A stretch of 42,294 nt of DNA, from the UHGV virus genome UHGV-2027207. The stretch is one strand, 5' to 3'. The position numbers and the translations under genes are program-made. Below, piece by piece: positions 8,445-42,294 of the stretch (the stretch's first letter is position 1; every line of letters begins with the position of its first letter). Origin of the DNA: a virus. Below the pieces are notes generated by a model, which saw only the letters and a program-made list of their open reading frames with translations, had not been told where the DNA came from and made no database searches.

Positions 8445-8866
8445 CAGAAAAGATTAAAAAATGTCACTAATTTTGTGTTTTTGTCACTATATGACACTAA
8501 ATTGACGTTTTTAAAATCGCGGTATCCCTTGATACTCTAAGGATTAGACCAGTTTAATGACAAAATGACAAAAAAAGTACCATACTCTTTATATATACTA
8601 TAATACTACATTATAATGTAGTAACTTTATTTTTTAATTAATATATATAATATTTTGTCATTTTGTCATTATAAAAATAAGAATGTAGGTATATCAATGG
8701 ATACAGCGTTTTAAGGTGTCAAAATTAATGACAAAACGCTGACAAAAACAAGCGATTTAGTGACAAAATAACCATTTTAGGCTGACTTTTTGTCACTAAT
8801 AACTGGTTTACTTAACTCACACAGTATCCCTCATCTATGATATAATAGAAACAAAGAGGAGGAGAT
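8426..8866. promoter_or_regulatory. divergent control region with about 13 TGACAAAA/TTTTGTCA sites and a 115-bp perfect dyad (8556-8670) centred on palindrome TACTACATTATAATGTAGTA
   Basis: AATGACAAAATGACAAAA (8556-8573) is the exact reverse complement of 8653-8670. Central 20-bp palindrome at 8604-8623. AT-rich. Confidence 0.6.
8836..8849 (+). promoter_or_regulatory. TG-extended -10 promoter TATGATATAATAGA for the plus-arm early genes
   Basis: An identical 14-mer recurs at 10346-10359. Confidence 0.55.
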
Positions 8867-10065: not shown

Positions 10066-10413
10066 ATCAACAGCCACGCAGCCAAAATTATTTTAGGGAG
10101 AGCAAAAATGTTTTTACCCCCCTACCTTTTTATAACGAATTAATCGCTGACCCCTCCTCTTCGTACGAAATTCTAAAAATGAACTTTCAAAAACGCCCTT
10201 TTCCCTCGTAAAACGTCATTTACAACTGGTTTCTTGTGTTGAAAATTAAGGATTCCTGGTGCGTAGGTGGTGTTATTTCGCTTATACGATTGTTCCCCCT
10301 ATAAACATGATTGAACCCTGGTTTCTCTACACAGGATTCTTTTTATATGATATAATAGAGCTATATAAGGGAGTTAGCCGTTAACTCAAAAATAAAATAA
10401 GGGAGGTTATACA
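10066..10413. other. candidate cos/packaging site region
   Basis: 348-bp non-coding stretch with C-runs (CCCCCC, GACCCCTCCTCTTCG) between the HNH and terS-side genes, at the HK97-like position. Confidence 0.3.
10346..10359 (+). promoter_or_regulatory. TG-extended -10 promoter TATGATATAATAGA
   Basis: Exact repeat of 8836-8849. Confidence 0.5.
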
Positions 10414-37702: not shown

Positions 37703-37713
37703 ATTATAACATA
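37703..37713 (-). promoter_or_regulatory. TG-extended -10 promoter TATGTTATAATAGAT on the minus strand (identical 15-mer to the TMP promoter)
   Basis: Reverse complement of 37699-37713. Confidence 0.45.
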
Positions 37714-37733
37714 TATTCCCTTACTTGTGTATA

Positions 37734-38543
37734 TTATTTTAAAACCTCATACTCAATTTTAATTTTCTTCAAGTCTTCTTTCTTCACCTTGATTGTTACA
37801 TACTCAACGGGTTTAAGAGCCTCCTGTTTTTGCTCGTTTCCAGTGATGATAACAATGTCAGGCACTTTGGTTTCTTTTACTCTAGCTTGTTCTTTTTCAA
37901 GACGTTCTTTCTCTGCGATCATACTTGCATAGTCTAAAATAGCCTCTTGCATGTTAAAGCCGTTTTTAGAGTAGGCAATTAAAATGGCTGAACGATCATC
38001 CTTGTCAGGATAGGTTTGTTTTAATTGTTCATAATCATTCTTGAATGTATCAAAATAAGAAACCACCGCTTCACGTATCTTTTTGGCACTTGTAGCCTTG
38101 TTGGTTATAAGTGTTGGATTTTTGGCAATAAACTTATCAAAAGTAAGCCACTGTGGAGCGTTATATGACTTCTGATATTTTTTAAATAAGTCTTTGATTT
38201 GTAATTTCCTTTGTTCCTGTTCACGTGCAGTAATCTCCTTAATTTGAGCATTGATATGCCCCTCTCCTTCACCCAGGACTTCCTTCAATAGTTTAATCTT
38301 TTCATTGAGTTCGTCATAAGGGGTCATGATTTGCCGTTTGACAGCAAGACGTTCTGAATCTAATTTTTTAATCTCTTTACGAATTTCAGCAAGAAGTTTT
38401 TTATTTTCTATAATGTTTTCCTCATTCACTTCTTGCTCTTTCATTCTTTCAGCTAACCTCCTTACATCTTCAAGTGTTTTTTCGTAACCAATAAACTGTA
38501 TTTCATGTTTACCTGTAGATTTAATTGATAGTTCAAATGCCAT
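37734..38543 (-). CDS. DUF1351-like coiled-coil protein (recombination module)
   Basis: About 270 aa, K/E-rich coiled coil. Confidence 0.4.
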   Translation of the reverse strand: MAFELSIKSTGKHEIQFIGYEKTLEDVRRLAERMKEQEVNEENIIENKKLLAEIRKEIKKLDSERLAVKRQIMTPYDELNEKIKLLKEVLGEGEGHINAQIKEITAREQEQRKLQIKDLFKKYQKSYNAPQWLTFDKFIAKNPTLITNKATSAKKIREAVVSYFDTFKNDYEQLKQTYPDKDDRSAILIAYSKNGFNMQEAILDYASMIAEKERLEKEQARVKETKVPDIVIITGNEQKQEALKPVEYVTIKVKKEDLKKIKIEYEVLK

Positions 38544-38700
38544 TCTCTTCATCCTTCATTTTAAGACGTTTATATTCTACAGCAAAGATTTCATCAATTG
38601 TATAATTGATTTTCAAAAGCCATTTGTATTTTTCAATTAGATCAAACAACTGGTTTTCAGTATAACCATAGTCTAATTTTAAAAGTGTTTTATAGTTCAT
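38536..38700 (-). CDS. 54-aa hypothetical protein (MNYKTLLKLDYGYTENQ...)
   Basis: Not in the track. ATGA overlaps with both neighbours. Confidence 0.4.
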
Positions 38701-38921
38701 ACTCTATCACCTTCCAATTCAATTGTCATTCCTTCATCTCCATCTCCTAGGGTTGGTGTAATCCATGTAACAACTCGTTCTCCATACTTACCAACAAGCT
38801 CATCTATTGTATATCTAGGTGTGTCATAATAAAACCTCGTATCATTTCCAAATATAACTTCTATTAACCCATTATCCTCTAGCAGATGTGCTACATCATT
38901 CACTGTAAGTTTCTTAGTCAT
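38697..38921 (-). CDS. hypothetical protein
   Basis: RBS GGAGGAG. Confidence 0.45.
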   Translation of the reverse strand: MTKKLTVNDVAHLLEDNGLIEVIFGNDTRFYYDTPRYTIDELVGKYGERVVTWITPTLGDGDEGMTIELEGDRV

Positions 38922-38922
38922 T

Positions 38923-39150
38923 TTATAACTCCTCCTTCAGTAACTCTAAATCATCATCACTTAAGCGATCAATTAATTCAATGTCTTCTTCACGTACATC
39001 CTCAAAGCGTGCTGCGAATTCTCCTGTTTCAACCAAGACAAGAATGTTTCCAAACTTGTCTACATGCTGCACAGTACCTTCATCCCCTTGTGCTGCGTGC
39101 ATTCCATAATTATTTGTGAATCTAACTAAATCTCCATATTGGTATTTCAT
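38923..39150 (-). CDS. hypothetical protein (start refined to MKYQYGDLVRF)
   Basis: GAGGAGGA 7 nt upstream of ATG 39150. Confidence 0.45.
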   Translation of the reverse strand: MKYQYGDLVRFTNNYGMHAAQGDEGTVQHVDKFGNILVLVETGEFAARFEDVREEDIELIDRLSDDDLELLKEEL

Positions 39151-39185
39151 TTTTCTTCCTCCTCTATATTTATGTTTTAATTGTA

Positions 39186-39950
39186 TCATCTTATTAGCCA
39201 TTTGTCAACATCCTTTTTGGTAATTTTTCCTTTTGATTTTTTAATCAACCCCTCAAATGTTCTGTATGTTTCTGACTGGTGTAGCTCTACATTAATCATA
39301 TCATGTTTACCAAATTTGTCAACAAATAACTCCCGATCTGTTGTACTTAAGTGGCGATATGAACCTGAGCTGAACACATCATATCCAGTGTGTGTTTTCG
39401 TTGATTCATAAAACTCAATTACTTTAGGGTCATAATTAGCTTCTAAAAGAATAATATCAAGTTTTAACTCATTTGTCAATAGATAAGTTTCATAATCTAC
39501 TAAAGTACTCAAATCAGTAGCATAAATTAAAGTTTGTGAAGGACTCTCTAGAATGAAACCATGTGTTTCTGTGTAGTCTTCAGCTGCACCATGATAATTC
39601 TGAAGTGTTGTGAATTTTATATCTCCAATTTGAAACTGGAAATCATCTTTGAATGTTATGTCTACACTACTAAGTTTGCGTTTTAGTAGTTCATTGTTAA
39701 CAGTTTCGTTAGATAATATTTTAATGTGGGGAAAGTTTTCTCTAATCTTTTTGTATGTTGTATATACAAGGTGATCCTGGTGTTTATGGGTAATAAATAC
39801 AAATTGTTTATCATATAAATATGGCTCAATATATTTGTATGGCTTTCCAATATCAATTAGGAACCCAATGTTCTCATAATAAATTGACGCTGAGTTTCCT
39901 TTTGAACCGCTAAAATGTATTTTAAAAGTGAATGACGTATTCAAATACAT
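39186..39950 (-). CDS. MBL-fold metallo-hydrolase (putative nuclease)
   Basis: HKHQDH (HxHxDH) motif; N-terminal FSGSKGNS. Confidence 0.7.
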   Translation of the reverse strand: MYLNTSFTFKIHFSGSKGNSASIYYENIGFLIDIGKPYKYIEPYLYDKQFVFITHKHQDHLVYTTYKKIRENFPHIKILSNETVNNELLKRKLSSVDITFKDDFQFQIGDIKFTTLQNYHGAAEDYTETHGFILESPSQTLIYATDLSTLVDYETYLLTNELKLDIILLEANYDPKVIEFYESTKTHTGYDVFSSGSYRHLSTTDRELFVDKFGKHDMINVELHQSETYRTFEGLIKKSKGKITKKDVDKWLIR

Positions 39951-40458
39951 AACCTCCTGTTTGTTTTAATTTACCTTTTAAAACTTTTGTAATACTTGAG
40001 GGGTCTAATCCCAATTGTCTACCACATTCTTTAGTACTATAAAAAGTTTTGGTTTCACCAGTTTTGAGATTAGTTGTTAGAATTGGGATACTTAGCGTTT
40101 TACTCATTCTTTCATTATGCGTTCCATAATTAACATTTTCCTTTGCTGTAACCCATTCCAGATTTGAAACCCTGTTGTTTGTTTTATCCTCGTCAATATG
40201 ATTTACCTGTGGTTTATTATCAGGGTTTAGGATAAACGCCTGAGCTACTAGACGATGTACTCTAAATGTTTTTAATTTTGACTTTATTGATAACGTTACT
40301 ATTGGATATCCCCAATCATTCAGATAATTCTTTAAAACCTTACCTTTACGTACTCTACCTAACTTATCTATACTATCATAACTTCTAACTCTTCCTAAAT
40401 TACTAACTTGATAAATACCTTCATACCCTTTAATATCTTTCCAAATTTCTCCAATCAT
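39922..40458 (-). CDS. HNH homing endonuclease (NUMOD4 + HNH_3)
   Basis: MIGEIWKDIKGYEGIYQVSNLGRV...HRLVAQAF...NHIDEDKTNN..NLEW. Confidence 0.85.
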   Translation of the reverse strand: MIGEIWKDIKGYEGIYQVSNLGRVRSYDSIDKLGRVRKGKVLKNYLNDWGYPIVTLSIKSKLKTFRVHRLVAQAFILNPDNKPQVNHIDEDKTNNRVSNLEWVTAKENVNYGTHNERMSKTLSIPILTTNLKTGETKTFYSTKECGRQLGLDPSSITKVLKGKLKQTGGYVFEYVIHF

Positions 40459-40919
40459 TTATTCCTGTCCTCCCACCGATTTCCTTCTAATTCCCAAAGC
40501 TCTCTACCAAGCTTATTAGCTTCTTTCCAGTTTTGTTGCTCACATGCATCTCCAATAGCTACAATTAACGCATGACGCTTAGGCTCTACTTTCTTTCTGA
40601 AAGGACGTGCCACACGCTCTACCCCTTCTTTTGGATTAATAGCGTAACCAATATTAGTGTAGTGACTATTTTGTACATTACCATCTTTAAAATATAAATA
40701 TCCTAAGTTGTGTTCATTTTTAACAAACATATCTGCTACTAATTGAGAGACGTAGAATTTACGTGACTTCGTATGTGAGCCTTCAAGTACTACATACATT
40801 TTTCCATTCTTTGGATCAACTAATTCAGTTTCATATCGTTCTTTGTCTAAATGAAACACATGACCTTCATCCGTTATGGCATACATATCGTAAGGCTCAT
40901 TTAATGGTTCAAATCTCAT
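40455..40919 (-). CDS. divergent NUMOD4/HNH-like protein, possibly degenerate
   Basis: YDMYAITDEGHVF and KFYVSQLVADMFV echo NUMOD4 and the HRLVAQAF motif. ATGA overlap with the neighbouring HNH. Confidence 0.4.
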   Translation of the reverse strand: MRFEPLNEPYDMYAITDEGHVFHLDKERYETELVDPKNGKMYVVLEGSHTKSRKFYVSQLVADMFVKNEHNLGYLYFKDGNVQNSHYTNIGYAINPKEGVERVARPFRKKVEPKRHALIVAIGDACEQQNWKEANKLGRELWELEGNRWEDRNK

Positions 40920-41148
40920 TATATTTTTCCTCCAGTTTGATTAATTGATCTACATAGACTTTCACTTTCTTTAAATCTTCAACGCCATTCTTTTGTTTAT
41001 AACGTTTTAAATATTTAATTGTATTTCCTAAGTAGAAACCTGTGACTTGTTCGTATGTCAATAGGTCATCTTCAAAAATATCAAAGAGTTGTTTTCCTGA
41101 ATTGGTTTTGTAACGTGTTGTATTTTCTAATTCTTCAACTGTAGTCAT
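40909..41148 (-). CDS. DUF3310-like phage protein
   Basis: GNTIKYLKRYKQKNGVEDLKK..VYVDQLI motif. Confidence 0.5.
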   Translation of the reverse strand: MTTVEELENTTRYKTNSGKQLFDIFEDDLLTYEQVTGFYLGNTIKYLKRYKQKNGVEDLKKVKVYVDQLIKLEEKYNEI

Positions 41149-41179
41149 TATATCAAATCCTCTCTTTGTTTATATATTT

Positions 41180-41208
41180 ATACTATCATATAGTATCTTA
41201 CTTGTCAA
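41180..41208 (-). promoter_or_regulatory. promoter TTGACA-N17-TAGTAT
   Basis: Exact -35 and a plausible -10 upstream of 40909-41148. Confidence 0.4.
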
Positions 41209-41224
41209 CACAAAACTTTTATTT

Positions 41225-41299
41225 TATGCTATAATAAAGTATAGGGATTCCTCCTCCCTCCTCTCGTTAAGACTAGCCAAGTGGCTAGTCTTTTTGTTT
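41225..41299 (+). ncRNA. candidate ~55-nt C-rich sRNA: TG-extended -10 (TATGCTATAAT, 41225-41235) to a strong terminator (41269-41299)
   Basis: Transcribed sequence AGGGAUUCCUCCUCCCUCCUCUCG + 10-bp stem AAGACUAGCC/GGCUAGUCUU + U-tract. No ORF. Confidence 0.35.
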
Positions 41300-41485
41300 A
41301 TAGTTTTGAATATCTGATAAATATCCAAATACCTCGCGCGCTGTATGAAAATCAACTCTATGAGTATCTTGTGGTTCATTAACATGAAAAACCTCTACAT
41401 AATATTTTAACTCAAATCTGGATTGACTAACTACTGTCGCACAGTATCCATTTGTAAACTCTGTGCTAAATAATTGTTTATCCAT
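41285..41485 (-). CDS. hypothetical protein
   Basis: ORF. Confidence 0.4.
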   Translation of the reverse strand: MDKQLFSTEFTNGYCATVVSQSRFELKYYVEVFHVNEPQDTHRVDFHTAREVFGYLSDIQNYKQKD

Positions 41486-42234
41486 CAGTTGTCCTCCATT
41501 CTACGTAGTTCACGCTTACGCACACTTTCATATGTTTGCATTACTTCATCCTCTGACAGCGGTGGAACACACCCTATCTGATTAACATACAGAGACCACA
41601 CACGTACCTCATCATGATTCAGTCCTGTAGCAAATAATTTACCAATTTGGGTGGTTAGCCAGATATTTCTTCCTCCTTCCCCACTACCTGCAATTATATC
41701 ACCTAATAGGGTTGCTGTCCACTTTCTCTCTCTCTTCTTATTCTTTTTTGTAATTGTTTTATCTGTGAACATCTCTAACCATTTCTCAGGTAGTTCTGCC
41801 ATTTCTACATCACGTGCTACCTCATAATATGTTCCATCAATTTTGCTAGGTGGTGCTAATATTATTCTGCCGTGTGTTTGAAAATCAACACCTTTTAGTT
41901 GAGGATGATTTTGAATGAATTGAGTGTCATTGTATTTCTCATCAAGTTTAAAATAATAATGGTAACCTCCACTTGGTGTCTTAACAACCTTAGTTTTTGG
42001 TAACTCAATGCCATAAGTATCCAAGAACTCTTTTAAGTTACCAAGACCATCTACTCCATTATGGTTGTCAATGTCAATGACTGCAATACCACTTGTTTTA
42101 CCAGTAGCATATGCAACATTTCCTCCTTCTGCTATCCATTGGTCAACTATTTTATCATCTTCTCCTCCAAATGCTCCTGCGACTAATGGTGCTTTACCAT
42201 TTTTCTTAATGCGTAGTCTTTTAATTTCTTTCAA
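41485..42234 (-). CDS. bifunctional primase-polymerase (AEP Prim-Pol domain)
   Basis: IAVIDIDNH...GYHYYF pattern. TTG start with AGGAGGA RBS. Confidence 0.65.
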   Translation of the reverse strand: MKEIKRLRIKKNGKAPLVAGAFGGEDDKIVDQWIAEGGNVAYATGKTSGIAVIDIDNHNGVDGLGNLKEFLDTYGIELPKTKVVKTPSGGYHYYFKLDEKYNDTQFIQNHPQLKGVDFQTHGRIILAPPSKIDGTYYEVARDVEMAELPEKWLEMFTDKTITKKNKKRERKWTATLLGDIIAGSGEGGRNIWLTTQIGKLFATGLNHDEVRVWSLYVNQIGCVPPLSEDEVMQTYESVRKRELRRMEDN

Positions 42235-42264
42235 AATAATATCCTCCTCTTAACTTATGAACTA

Positions 42265-42293
42265 AGTATAACACCCCAATTAAGGGGCGTCAA
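42265..42293 (-). promoter_or_regulatory. promoter TTGACG-N17-TGTTATACT + leader TAGTTCATAAG..AGGAGG with a palindromic spacer (ACACCCC..GGGGCGT)
   Basis: Near-duplicate of the 33275-33303 module. Confidence 0.6.
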
Positions 42294-42294
42294 G

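What the first reader, a model, noticed from the sequence alone, without database searches (positions are those of the whole stretch)
41225..41299. Candidate C-rich phage sRNA with an anti-Shine-Dalgarno seed
On the plus strand, inside the minus-strand replication arm, a TG-extended -10 (TATGCTATAAT, same family as the plus-arm promoters) is followed about 10 nt later by AGGGATTCCTCCTCCCTCCTCTCG. A strong terminator follows (10-bp stem AAGACTAGCC/GGCTAGTCTT, loop AAGT, then TTTTTGTTT). The predicted transcript of about 55 nt has no ORF. Its single-stranded 5' half, CCUCCUCCCUCCUC, is complementary to the GGAGG/AGGAGG ribosome-binding sites used by essentially every gene here and in the host. 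This resembles the UCCC seed logic of staphylococcal sRNAs. The transcript is also antisense to the 3' end of the 41285-41485 mRNA.
Basis: partly seen in the sequence, partly recalled or inferred. Interest (0 to 1): 0.65.

Follow-up and report, generated by a model that had tools for sequence, protein, structure and literature searches.

The report
Conserved enterococcal-phage small RNA, anti-Shine-Dalgarno loop
A short non-coding RNA gene sits backwards inside the replication genes of this Enterococcus phage and about 120 sequenced relatives; it always displays the sequence UCCUCC, the mirror image of a ribosome-binding site, so it probably switches off translation of a set of phage (and perhaps host) genes.

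Summary
At 41207-41299 (+) there is an extended -10 promoter (AACACA-17-TGcTATAAT), a 5-bp hairpin with loop UUCCUCC (41243-41259), a CU-rich linker, and a 10-bp intrinsic terminator.

The window is an E. faecium siphophage (IME-EFm1/9184 group). The same module occurs once per genome, at the same syntenic spot, in about 121 GenBank Enterococcus phages and in all 33 informative primase-polymerase-anchored IMG/VR loci. Stems, linkers and terminators have been replaced many times (at least 8 apical stems, 5 terminators; 14-15 of 20 pairs covary). The promoter and the loop core UCCUCC stay invariant. No Rfam family, GenBank ncRNA annotation or paper describes it.

I conclude it is a genuine, undescribed phage sRNA family. 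The likely mechanism, inferred and not shown, is chaperone-independent pairing of the loop with Shine-Dalgarno sequences. Its exact complement GGAGGAA is the ribosome-binding-site flavour of the replication (early) arm: 18/39 genes versus 2/30 in the structural arm here, and 21/41 versus 4/25 in LM99. The sRNA promoter belongs to the structural-arm promoter class. This suggests an RNA counterpart of T4 RegB. Expression, timing and targets are untested.

The parts
41207..41235 (+). sRNA promoter: weak -35 AACACA (41207-12), 17-nt spacer, extended -10 TGcTATAAT (41227-35)
   Evidence: Sequence. It belongs to the CACA-N14-TGnTATAAT class, found 11 times against 0.81 expected. A 32-34 nt block is identical in phages whose primase-polymerase is only 57-70% identical. 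Only the N of TGnTATAAT varies (C/G/A/T), as expected for a real extended -10.
41241..41299 (+). Predicted sRNA transcript, about 55-59 nt. The 5' end is inferred from -10 spacing and the 3' end from the U-tract.
   Evidence: Covariance model R1 hit at 41241-41296, 53.6 bits, E about 4e-11, the only strong hit in the window. MFE -21.1 kcal/mol, z -3.85. No ORF.
41243..41259 (+). Hairpin 1: stem AGGGA/UCCCU with apical loop UUCCUCC (41248-41254), the anti-Shine-Dalgarno motif
   Evidence: Every one of 21+ distinct variants folds on its own with the motif in a hairpin loop. At least 8 unrelated apical stems surround the invariant loop core. Loop columns are the only invariant block of the alignment.
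41255..41268 (+). CU-rich 3' arm plus unpaired linker UCCCUCCUCUCGUU. This is a second potential anti-SD site (CCUCCUCU), specific to the E. faecium-phage type.
   Evidence: Present in all type-E and L195-type variants. Complementary to AGAGGAGG / GAGAGGA ribosome-binding sites of several minus-arm genes.
41269..41299 (+). Intrinsic terminator: 10-bp stem AAGACUAGCC/GGCUAGUCUU, loop AAGU, then a U-tract
   Evidence: Terminator scan. 97.6-97.9% of cells are paired, and 6-7 of 10 pairs change on both sides. Counts are 168 Watson-Crick, 18 G-U and 0 A-C, so the + strand is the RNA strand.
41180..41208 (-). Back-to-back sigma-A promoter of the next minus-strand operon (TTGACA-17-TAGTAT with TG). 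Its -35 overlaps the sRNA -35 by 2 nt.
   Evidence: Promoter scan. Annotated as a promoter in phage LM99. Conserved together with the sRNA module.
41285..41485 (-). 66-aa ORF of unknown function. Its last about 12-15 nt overlap the sRNA terminator and U-tract.
   Evidence: ORF list. No Pfam hit. The overlap is not conserved in Efquatrovirus.
41485..42234 (-). Primase-polymerase gene, used as the synteny anchor upstream on the opposite strand
   Evidence: Pfam Prim-Pol and PriCT_1. All 33 relatives with downstream sequence carry the sRNA antisense, about 0.2-1 kb downstream.
40909..41148 (-). DUF3310 gene, first gene of the divergent operon. Its ribosome-binding site is GAGAGGA.
   Evidence: Pfam DUF3310. 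The first gene differs among relatives, while the 5'UTR and SD stay with the module.

Best explanation
This is a gene for a small non-coding RNA of about 55-59 nt here and 65-75 nt in Efquatrovirus relatives. It is conserved in a large group of virulent Enterococcus siphophages.

Host sigma-A RNA polymerase is predicted to start at about 41241-41243 from an extended -10 promoter and to stop at the intrinsic terminator at about 41295-41299. The RNA consists of a 5' hairpin whose apical loop displays (A/C)UUCCUCC, a linker, and the terminator hairpin. In this phage type the linker is itself CU-rich.

Shown by sequence comparison:
- The promoter, both helices and the loop sequence are under selection.
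- The + strand is the RNA strand.

Inferred:
- The loop, and here also the linker, base-pairs without a chaperone with GGAGGA(A) Shine-Dalgarno sequences. This keeps 30S subunits off those mRNAs.
- GGAGGAA is the ribosome-binding-site flavour of the replication/early arm and is rare in the structural arm, and the sRNA uses the structural-arm type of promoter.
- The most likely role is therefore to damp or shut off translation of early-arm mRNAs, and possibly of host mRNAs with the same SD flavour, while sparing late mRNAs.
- A secondary effect follows automatically: pairing with read-through transcripts of the primase-polymerase operon, to which the sRNA is fully complementary.
For: **Identity of the window**
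- It is an Enterococcus phage related to IME-EFm1/9184.

**Distribution**
- The module is present in 121-125 GenBank records, all Enterococcus phages.
- A promoter-only pattern found 23 IMG/VR contigs, all carrying the loop hairpin.
- All 33 primase-polymerase-anchored loci that have downstream sequence contain it.
- In the metagenome scan, every pattern match with the family's module layout carried the loop hairpin.
- There is one copy per genome.

**Structure**
- Every variant folds into the same two hairpins with the motif in a loop.
- 91.9% of cells are paired against 72.6% in shuffles. 14-15 of 20 pairs change on both sides. 0 of 500 shuffles reach this, and slid controls give 28-51%.
- The terminator has 18 G-U and 0 A-C pairs. 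Types A, C and D fold 3-10 kcal/mol better on the + strand.

**Selection on the loop**
- TTCCTCC is the only invariant transcribed block.
- In Phi_Eg_SY1 the same AUUCCUCC loop has moved into the terminator hairpin.

**Selection on the promoter**
- TG and TATAAT are invariant and the N is free.

**Target logic**
- GGAGGAA occurs in 18/39 early-arm versus 2/30 late-arm ribosome-binding sites in the window (p = 0.0004).
- In LM99 the figures are 21/41 versus 4/25 (p = 0.005; with GenBank starts 21/39 versus 4/25). In SY1 they are 10/32 versus 2/21, the same direction.
- Predicted loop-TIR duplexes are stronger for early genes (p = 0.0005-0.01). The 16S tail binds neither arm's TIRs clearly better: no significant difference in most tests, and where there is one it slightly favours the late arm (p = 0.023 in LM99 with the neutral caller).
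- The promoter is of the structural-arm class.

**Precedents**
- LhrC, RsaE and RNAIII use UCCC loops that bind SDs without Hfq (PMC4132741).
- The 6C sRNA acts through C-rich loops (PMC6486639).
- Enterococci lack Hfq and ProQ (PMC10117718).
- T4 RegB inactivates early mRNAs at GGAG-plus-A-rich SDs and spares late mRNAs (PMC3014915).
Against: - There are no expression data of any kind. The transcription start, abundance and timing are all inferred.
- The conserved seed is only 6-7 nt and matches a generic SD. No specific target could be singled out. A genome-wide duplex scan gave no extended trans site.
- The adjacent divergent gene is not a conserved perfect target.
- The SD-flavour asymmetry could exist for reasons unrelated to the sRNA. 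I did not test a phage lacking the sRNA, nor the host genome.
- The three genomes tested are related, so the tests are not independent. In SY1 the result is not significant.
- In LM99 the CACA -35 signature is rare in the structural arm, so the shared 'late class' rests mainly on the extended -10 with a weak -35.
- That extended -10 promoters act late is itself an inference.
- Type-E hairpins are symmetric, so they fold equally well on the minus strand.
- The 5-bp stem here is weak.
Confidence: 0.5

Rival explanations
1. It acts in cis, as an antisense or transcriptional-interference element in the manner of lambda OOP RNA. The short convergent transcript pairs with, or its polymerase collides with, read-through transcripts from the primase-polymerase operon. 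This triggers RNase III cleavage or insulates the downstream operon, and the loop sequence is incidental.
For: - The gene always lies antisense between two minus-strand operons.
- No convincing minus-strand terminator precedes it, so read-through RNA would be perfectly complementary to it.
- Its -35 overlaps the -35 of the divergent promoter, so the two polymerases should compete.
- The terminator overlaps the end of the upstream ORF in this phage.
Against: - A purely cis antisense RNA is complementary whatever its sequence. That cannot explain why UCCUCC is invariant, and always in a loop, while all stems, linkers and terminators are replaced.
- The overlap with the upstream ORF is about 12-15 nt here and close to nil in Efquatrovirus. 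OOP overlaps cII by about 55 nt (my own knowledge).
Confidence: 0.2
2. The hairpin loop is a binding site or decoy for a protein or ribonucleoprotein rather than for mRNAs. Candidates are a phage RNA-binding protein, a host nuclease or defence sensor, or a ribosomal component. The resemblance to an anti-SD would then be coincidental or a form of mimicry of the 16S 3' end.
For: - An invariant loop on variable stems is the classic signature of a protein-recognised hairpin.
- Relocation of the loop to another hairpin in SY1 keeps only the loop.
Against: - No conserved neighbouring protein gene travels with the module.
- The motif is exactly the SD complement, and its complement is strongly enriched in one gene class of the same genomes. 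A protein-site model does not predict this.
Confidence: 0.1
3. There is no function for the RNA itself. The conserved block is an A/T-rich UP element plus bidirectional terminators serving the flanking minus-strand operons, and any + strand transcript is a by-product.
For: - The A/T-rich block lies at -36 to -62 of the strong minus-strand promoter.
- The complement of hairpin 1 is followed by a moderately U-rich stretch on the minus strand.
Against: - TG and TATAAT are invariant while the intervening N is free. That is a promoter signature, not a UP-element one.
- G-U pairs and the U-tract are on the + strand.
- The invariance of the loop sequence is left unexplained.
Confidence: 0.07
4. It is a replication primer or origin-activating transcript next to the primase-polymerase gene.
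For: It is located inside the replication module, and a strong promoter drives a very short transcript.
Against: - There are no iterons or repeated boxes in 41100-41350.
- There is no local GC-skew switch.
- An efficient intrinsic terminator and a conserved hairpin loop are not features of primer RNAs.
Confidence: 0.05

Closest known systems
UCCC / CU-rich-loop sRNAs of Firmicutes: Listeria LhrC, staphylococcal RsaE, RNAIII and SprD, Bacillus RoxS and FsrA
   Same: - Short RNAs with their own promoter and an intrinsic terminator.
[quoted passage not shown]
- They bind the G-rich SD region and block translation, independently of Hfq (PMC4132741).
- Type E here even has the LhrC-like layout of loop plus linker.
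   Different: - There is no sequence or structure homology: no Rfam family reaches its threshold.
- It is encoded by virulent phages, not by the bacterial chromosome. A promoter-pattern scan of 185,579 species genomes found none.
- The motif is the full SD complement UUCCUCC rather than UCCC.
- It has a single invariant loop.
Actinobacterial 6C sRNA
   Same: C-rich hairpin loops pair with G-rich ribosome-binding sites of many mRNAs without a chaperone (PMC6486639).
   Different: It belongs to a different phylum, is a different and larger RNA with several loops, and is chromosomal. There is no homology.
Alphaproteobacterial ar14/NfeR1-type RNAs and the Betaproteobacteria toxic sRNA (Rfam RF02344, RF02278)
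   Same: They carry CCUCCUCCC anti-SD motifs in loops. The window RNA contains exactly CCUCCUCCC, which is why weak cmscan hits appear. Their reported action on SDs is from my own knowledge.
   Different: Scores are 19-20 bits against thresholds of 50-59, so this is convergence and not membership. The hosts and architectures differ.
Lambda OOP RNA
   Same: It is a phage-encoded RNA of about 77 nt with its own promoter and intrinsic terminator. It is transcribed against the flow of an early operon, next to replication genes (my own knowledge).
   Different: OOP works through long perfect overlap with the 3' end of cII. Here the coding overlap is minimal and not conserved, and a short loop motif is the conserved element.
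T4 RegB endoribonuclease (and the RegA repressor): functional analogue, protein not RNA
   Same: It selectively inactivates early mRNAs by recognising GGAG followed by A-rich sequence in their ribosome-binding sites, while late mRNAs escape (PMC3014915). This is the same SD-flavour logic as the GGAGGAA asymmetry found here.
   Different: RegB is a protein nuclease helped by S1. Here the recognising agent would be an RNA loop acting by base pairing. The timing and the effect are untested.

Membership tests
Any Rfam 15 family (including Ref84, ctRNA_pND324, Lacto-phage-1, ar14, Betaproteobacteria toxic sRNA, ncr1241) | Covariance-model score at or above the family's gathering threshold | tested here: not met
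   There are no hits at gathering thresholds in the whole window. The best sub-threshold hits are 14-25 bits against thresholds of 45-80. Nothing relevant was found in LM99.
C-rich-loop, SD-masking sRNAs of Gram-positive bacteria (a functional class) | Independent transcription unit: own promoter plus Rho-independent terminator, and no ORF | tested here: met
   Met in silico only. Extended -10 promoter and terminator. Conserved and covarying. No ORF. Expression has not been measured.
C-rich-loop, SD-masking sRNAs of Gram-positive bacteria (a functional class) | C-rich motif exposed in a hairpin loop or unpaired stretch | tested here: met
   UUCCUCC is in the apical loop in every variant's own MFE fold. 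Type E also has a CU-rich linker.
C-rich-loop, SD-masking sRNAs of Gram-positive bacteria (a functional class) | Base-pairs with the SD of target mRNAs and inhibits translation initiation | not testable with these tools
   Only complementarity and predicted duplex energies are available. The loop binds early-arm TIRs better than late-arm TIRs, whereas 16S-tail binding differs little between the arms and, if anything, slightly favours the late arm.
C-rich-loop, SD-masking sRNAs of Gram-positive bacteria (a functional class) | Homology to a named member (RsaE/RoxS, LhrC, RNAIII) | tested here: not met
   No Rfam match. The resemblance is one of mechanism, not of descent.
Lambda OOP-type cis-antisense RNA | Short convergent transcript with its own promoter and intrinsic terminator inside an early operon | tested here: met
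Lambda OOP-type cis-antisense RNA | Extensive overlap with the coding 3' end of the opposite-strand gene as the functional target | tested here: not met
   The overlap is about 12-15 nt here. In LM99 the ORF's stop codon lies in the U-tract, so the overlap is only about 2 nt.
Lambda OOP-type cis-antisense RNA | RNase III-dependent cleavage of the sense mRNA | not testable with these tools
   No experimental data.
Replication origin or primer transcript | Iterons or repeated binding sites, an AT-rich unwinding element, and a skew switch | tested here: not met
   Only promoter symmetry and the terminator are found. GC skew follows the two arms only.
New family defined here (model R1) | Extended -10 promoter, a hairpin with a (A/C)U(U/C)CCUCC loop, an intrinsic terminator, and a position antisense downstream of the primase-polymerase gene | tested here: met
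   Window hit at 41241-41296, 53.6 bits (the window sequence is in the training set). Independent loci score 53-77 bits, while unrelated loci score 26 bits or less.

The most novel reading that the evidence does not exclude
The sRNA is an RNA counterpart of T4 RegB/RegA. Under this reading a 55-75 nt transcript is made from the -35-independent promoter class that drives the structural genes. It recognises the GGAGGAA flavour of Shine-Dalgarno sequence that marks the early/replication arm, and possibly host mRNAs. It thereby switches translation from early to late messages. This would be temporal control of a lytic cycle by SD-flavour discrimination through a single RNA loop, conserved across more than 100 therapeutic-candidate Enterococcus phages.
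Probability: 0.27. Interest if true: 0.85.

Novelty: new member of a known kind. Interest (0 to 1): 0.68.

Why it matters
Regulatory RNAs of virulent Gram-positive phages are almost unexplored. None is annotated in the roughly 120 sequenced Enterococcus phages that carry this module, and many of those phages are being developed for therapy against VRE.

The family gives a compact, strongly covarying and easily mutated RNA. Its invariant 7-nt loop yields a clear hypothesis: SD masking in hosts that lack Hfq and ProQ.

If the early-versus-late SD asymmetry is its target logic, phages would be able to time translation with an RNA that reads ribosome-binding-site flavour. Until now that principle has been known only for a protein, T4 RegB.

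On the practical side:
- The module marks a strong constitutive-type promoter and terminator pair usable in Enterococcus.
- Deleting or over-expressing the RNA could alter burst timing in therapeutic phages.

Tried and rejected
- **Known RNA families.** Rfam at gathering and at permissive thresholds, on the window and on LM99, gave only chance-level hits.
- **The adjacent divergent gene as a specific co-evolving target.** It is attractive in Efquatrovirus, where the neighbour's SD is UUAGGAGGAAUU. But type-E phages have GAGAGGAUUU, IME-EFm5 mixes the two types, L004 has a linker change with no matching SD change, and SY1 has AAGGAAG. Rejected as the conserved target.
- **An extended trans target in the phage.** A genome-wide duplex scan found only SD-like 7-9 nt matches, apart from the trivial antisense site.
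- **A second C-rich RNA at 10066-10330 (+).** The region has no structure (z +0.26). It coincides with the genome ends of the IME-EFm1, Aramis and dArtagnan records, so it is most likely the cos/terminus region.
- **A minus-strand reading (decoy SD or mini-ORF after GGAGGAA).** No start codon or peptide is conserved among variants (read directly from the sequences). The G-U pattern favours the + strand.
- **An origin or primer role.** No iterons and no skew change.
- **Host or prophage copies.** A promoter-pattern scan of 185,579 species genomes found only 3 unrelated hits. This was a pattern search, not a structure search, so divergent copies could be missed.
- **Literature.** Searches for Enterococcus phage sRNAs, Efquatrovirus, and anti-SD phage sRNAs returned nothing on this element.
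- **Not done.** I did not run a negative-control phage lacking the sRNA, and I did not analyse SD usage in the host genome.

Full report
**1. What is in the sequence**

The finding lies in the 136-nt gap between two minus-strand genes. One is a 66-aa ORF (41285-41485) that follows a Prim-Pol/PriCT_1 primase-polymerase gene (41485-42234). The other is a DUF3310 gene (40909-41148).

On the + strand the gap contains, in order:
- a weak -35, AACACA (41207-12);
- a 17-nt spacer;
- a perfect extended -10, TGcTATAAT (41227-35);
- seven bases later, AGGGA-UUCCUCC-UCCCU (41243-59);
- CCUCUCGUU (41260-68);
- a 10-bp hairpin AAGACUAGCC-AAGU-GGCUAGUCUU (41269-92) followed by UUUGUUU.

The terminator is the best terminator-like site in 38000-42294. 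The 59-nt RNA folds into exactly these two hairpins at -21.1 kcal/mol, z = -3.85, with 0 of 200 dinucleotide shuffles as stable. No plausible ORF exists.

A canonical minus-strand promoter, TTGACA-17-TAGTAT (41208-41180), lies back-to-back with it. The two -35 hexamers overlap by two bases.

The C-rich tract is partly a hairpin that presents UUCCUCC as a loop. The overlap with the upstream ORF is only about 12-15 nt.

**2. Where the window comes from and how widespread the element is**

blastn identifies the window as an Enterococcus faecium siphophage of the IME-EFm1/9184 group, at 82-89% identity.

About 100 E. faecalis phages of the genus Efquatrovirus share only a 75-90 nt piece of the query, namely the promoter region, in the same syntenic gap. 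Further searches gave the following.
- A promoter-only pattern found 23 IMG/VR contigs.
- A primase-polymerase protein search found 34 loci. All 33 that have downstream sequence contain the element, always antisense and about 0.2-1 kb downstream.
- A metagenome scan added more members.
- blastn with an Efquatrovirus version hit 121 GenBank records, all Enterococcus phages. The features annotated under the match are 'none', 'hypothetical protein', 'promoter' or 'terminator', and never an RNA gene.
- A promoter-pattern scan of one genome from each of 185,579 bacterial and archaeal species gave no family member.
- Literature searches found no description.

**3. Evidence that it is a structured RNA gene on the + strand**

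The transcribed part exists in many versions that share almost no stem sequence.

Apical stems of the first hairpin:
- AUGCUG/CAGCAU
- AGGUG/CACCU
- GGGUA/UACCC
- AUGGUA/UACCAU
- AGGGA/UCCCU
- AGGGAGA/UCUUCCU
- GGGGG.../...CCC
- GGAAGU/ACUUCC

Efquatrovirus versions add a basal stem that also covaries: GUUACU/AGUGAC, AUAG/CUAU or UGGU/ACCA.

There are five unrelated terminators. Within one type there are compensatory changes: GCC/GGC to GUC/GAC, and AAGACUAG to AACUCUAG with the matching 3' change.

Each of the 21+ distinct sequences folds on its own into the same architecture.

On a 17-sequence MAFFT alignment with the structure I specified:
- 91.9% of cells are paired, against 72.6% in column shuffles (0 of 500 reach the observed value);
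- 14 of 20 pairs change on both sides;
- sliding the partners gives only 28-51% paired.

A model-fitted alignment of 23 hits gives the same picture.

The terminator helix has 168 Watson-Crick, 18 G-U and no A-C cells. The U-tract is on the + strand, and types A, C and D fold 3-10 kcal/mol better on the + strand.

In the promoter, TG and TATAAT never change, while the intervening base takes all four values. That is the signature of an extended -10 element rather than of a mere A/T-rich UP element.

Covariance model R1 finds exactly one strong hit per phage at 53-77 bits. The window hit is 41241-41296, 53.6 bits. Nothing above 26 bits appears in about 100 unrelated loci.

**4. What is actually conserved**

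The only invariant transcribed block is UUCCUCC. It is always in a hairpin loop of 7-9 nt. One lineage (DELF1, EhiS_268, L195) has ACUCCUCC, which leaves UCCUCC as the core.

In the more distant E. gallinarum phage Phi_Eg_SY1 the module is remodelled. It keeps the same TTTTATGGTATAAT promoter and the same synteny upstream of the HNH and metallo-beta-lactamase genes. But it has a CU-rich unstructured 5' part and a single hairpin, ACACCUAGUGG-AUUCCUCC-CCAUUAGGUGU, followed by the U-tract. The motif has moved into the terminator loop.

Selection therefore acts on 'UCCUCC in a loop', not on any particular helix. A purely cis-antisense RNA would not be constrained in this way.

**5. Inferred mechanism**

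UUCCUCC is the exact complement of GGAGGAA, that is, the SD core plus two A's.

I tabulated ribosome-binding sites by genome arm.

| Genome | Start calls | Replication (early) arm | Structural (late) arm | Fisher p |
|---|---|---|---|---|
| Window | neutral caller (start chosen by 16S complementarity) | 18/39 | 2/30 | 0.0004 |
| LM99 | GenBank starts | 21/39 | 4/25 | 0.0036 |
| LM99 | neutral caller | 21/41 | 4/25 | 0.005 |
| Phi_Eg_SY1 | neutral caller | 10/32 | 2/21 | 0.095 |

An earlier, cruder call for the window gave 19/33 versus 2/22.

Gene-agnostic k-mer counts on the coding strand agree: 25 versus 5 in the window and 23 versus 4 in LM99.

Predicted duplexes between the loop and the 22 nt upstream of start codons are stronger for early-arm genes. 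In one search the means are -11.5 versus -9.7 kcal/mol in the window (p = 0.0005) and -10.7 versus -8.1 in LM99 (p = 0.002). The 3' tail of 16S rRNA does not favour the early arm: the arms are indistinguishable in most tests, and where they differ (LM99, neutral caller, p = 0.023) the late arm is slightly favoured. The 16S tail sequence is from my own knowledge.

In this phage type the 3' arm and linker (CCUCCUCUC) add a second site. It is complementary to the AGAGGAGG/GAGAGGA sites of several early genes, including the primase-polymerase gene and DUF3310.

The sRNA promoter belongs to the same class as the structural-arm promoters. CACA-N14-TGnTATAAT occurs 11 times against 0.81 expected, 8 of them in the plus arm. 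The replication arm instead uses canonical TTGACA promoters. In LM99 the shared trait is a weaker one: an extended -10 with a poor -35.

Enterococci lack Hfq and ProQ (PMC10117718). A GC-rich seed pre-displayed in a loop is what chaperone-independent sRNAs such as LhrC and 6C use (PMC4132741, PMC6486639).

My best model is therefore that the sRNA masks GGAGGA(A) ribosome-binding sites. These belong preferentially to early-arm mRNAs, and perhaps to host mRNAs as well.

T4 offers a protein precedent for this logic. RegB cuts GG*AGRAYARAA in early ribosome-binding sites and spares late mRNAs (PMC3014915).

Steps that are shown: conservation, structure, strand, motif invariance, SD asymmetry. Steps that are inferred: transcription, timing, pairing, and the effect on translation.

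**6. Rivals**

- *OOP-like cis antisense or collision insulator.* The RNA is automatically complementary to read-through transcripts, and the two promoters should compete. This may well be a secondary effect, but it does not explain the invariant loop.
- *Protein-binding hairpin or 16S-tail mimic.* This is possible. No partner gene travels with the module.
- *By-product of a UP element plus terminators.* The promoter signature and the + strand G-U pairs argue against it.
- *Origin or primer.* There are no iterons and no skew change.

**7. Comparison with known systems and novelty**

No Rfam family is matched. The weak ar14 and 'toxic sRNA' hits arise only from the shared CCUCCUCCC motif, so they reflect convergence.

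In mechanism it belongs with the C-rich-loop, SD-masking sRNAs. In descent it is a new family, restricted to virulent Enterococcus phages as far as I searched.

I rate it a new member of a known kind. There is a roughly one-in-four chance that it embodies something more novel, namely SD-flavour-based temporal control by an RNA.

**8. Limits**

- There are no transcriptomic data.
- Target prediction with a 7-nt seed is inherently non-specific.
- The three genomes used for the SD test are related.
- The host genome and sRNA-free control phages were not analysed.
- The window sequence is part of the training set of R1.
- E-values from the shortened calibration are rough.

Noticed in passing
window, whole (promoter hits at e.g. 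8820, 10330, 11431, 15473, 18927, 19598, 25078 on +; 42293, 41208, 39479, 39322, 39208 on -): There are two promoter classes, segregated by genome arm. The structural (+) arm uses CACA-N14-TGnTATAAT, an extended -10 with a weak -35. The replication (-) arm uses canonical TTGACA-17-TAnnnT. This hints at a temporal switch that depends on -35 recognition, as with T4 AsiA (my own knowledge). One CACA-class promoter sits on the minus strand at 37703-37729.
   Followed up: partly
window, all translation-initiation regions; also L205 (LM99) and L212 (Phi_Eg_SY1): Ribosome-binding-site flavour differs by arm. GGAGGAA dominates the replication arm, while the structural arm uses AAGGAG(G/A)(T/G). Predicted 16S binding is similar in the two arms (slightly stronger for the structural arm, if anything).
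   Followed up: yes
window 10066-10330: This is a 260-nt non-coding stretch with several C-rich blocks on the + strand (ACCCCCCUACC, GACCCCUCCUCUUCG, CGCCCUUUUCCCUCG, GUUCCCCCUAUAA). It has no predicted structure (z +0.26). The IME-EFm1, Aramis and dArtagnan GenBank records begin at window position ~10154, so this is probably the cos/terminus region upstream of the terminase genes.
   Followed up: partly
window 41203-41212: The -35 hexamers of the sRNA promoter (AACACA, +) and of the divergent operon promoter (TTGACA, -) overlap by 2 nt. The two RNA polymerases should therefore exclude each other. This looks like a compact bidirectional switch and may matter independently of the RNA.
   Followed up: no
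L212 (Phi_Eg_SY1, OQ623132.1) 8690-8795, minus strand: This is a remodelled family member. It has the same extended -10 promoter, a CU-rich unstructured 5' part (UCUCCCU), and the AUUCCUCC loop carried by the terminator hairpin itself. Model R1 scores it at only 22 bits, so a structure-blind search would miss such versions.
   Followed up: yes
window 40909-41148 and relatives (L001, L003, L011, L040, L053, L099): The first gene after the divergent promoter is mosaic among close relatives: DUF3310-type MTTVEEL..., MFKVGDKV..., or others. The 5'UTR and ribosome-binding site stay with the intergenic module, so recombination breakpoints sit at the start codon.
   Followed up: partly
window 39922-40458 (and the ORF at 40455-40919): A NUMOD4/HNH_3/I-HmuI-like homing endonuclease gene lies in the replication arm. 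Close relatives differ by insertions here: blastn matches are split into two pieces, and IME-EFm1 has an extra HNH gene.
   Followed up: no
GenBank records hit (e.g. IME_EF3, phiNASRA1, IME196): In many records a 'hypothetical protein' CDS is annotated under the 112-nt promoter-plus-sRNA query. These CDSs may be flanking ORFs that merely overlap the U-tract end, or spurious calls across the RNA gene. I did not check them individually.
   Followed up: no
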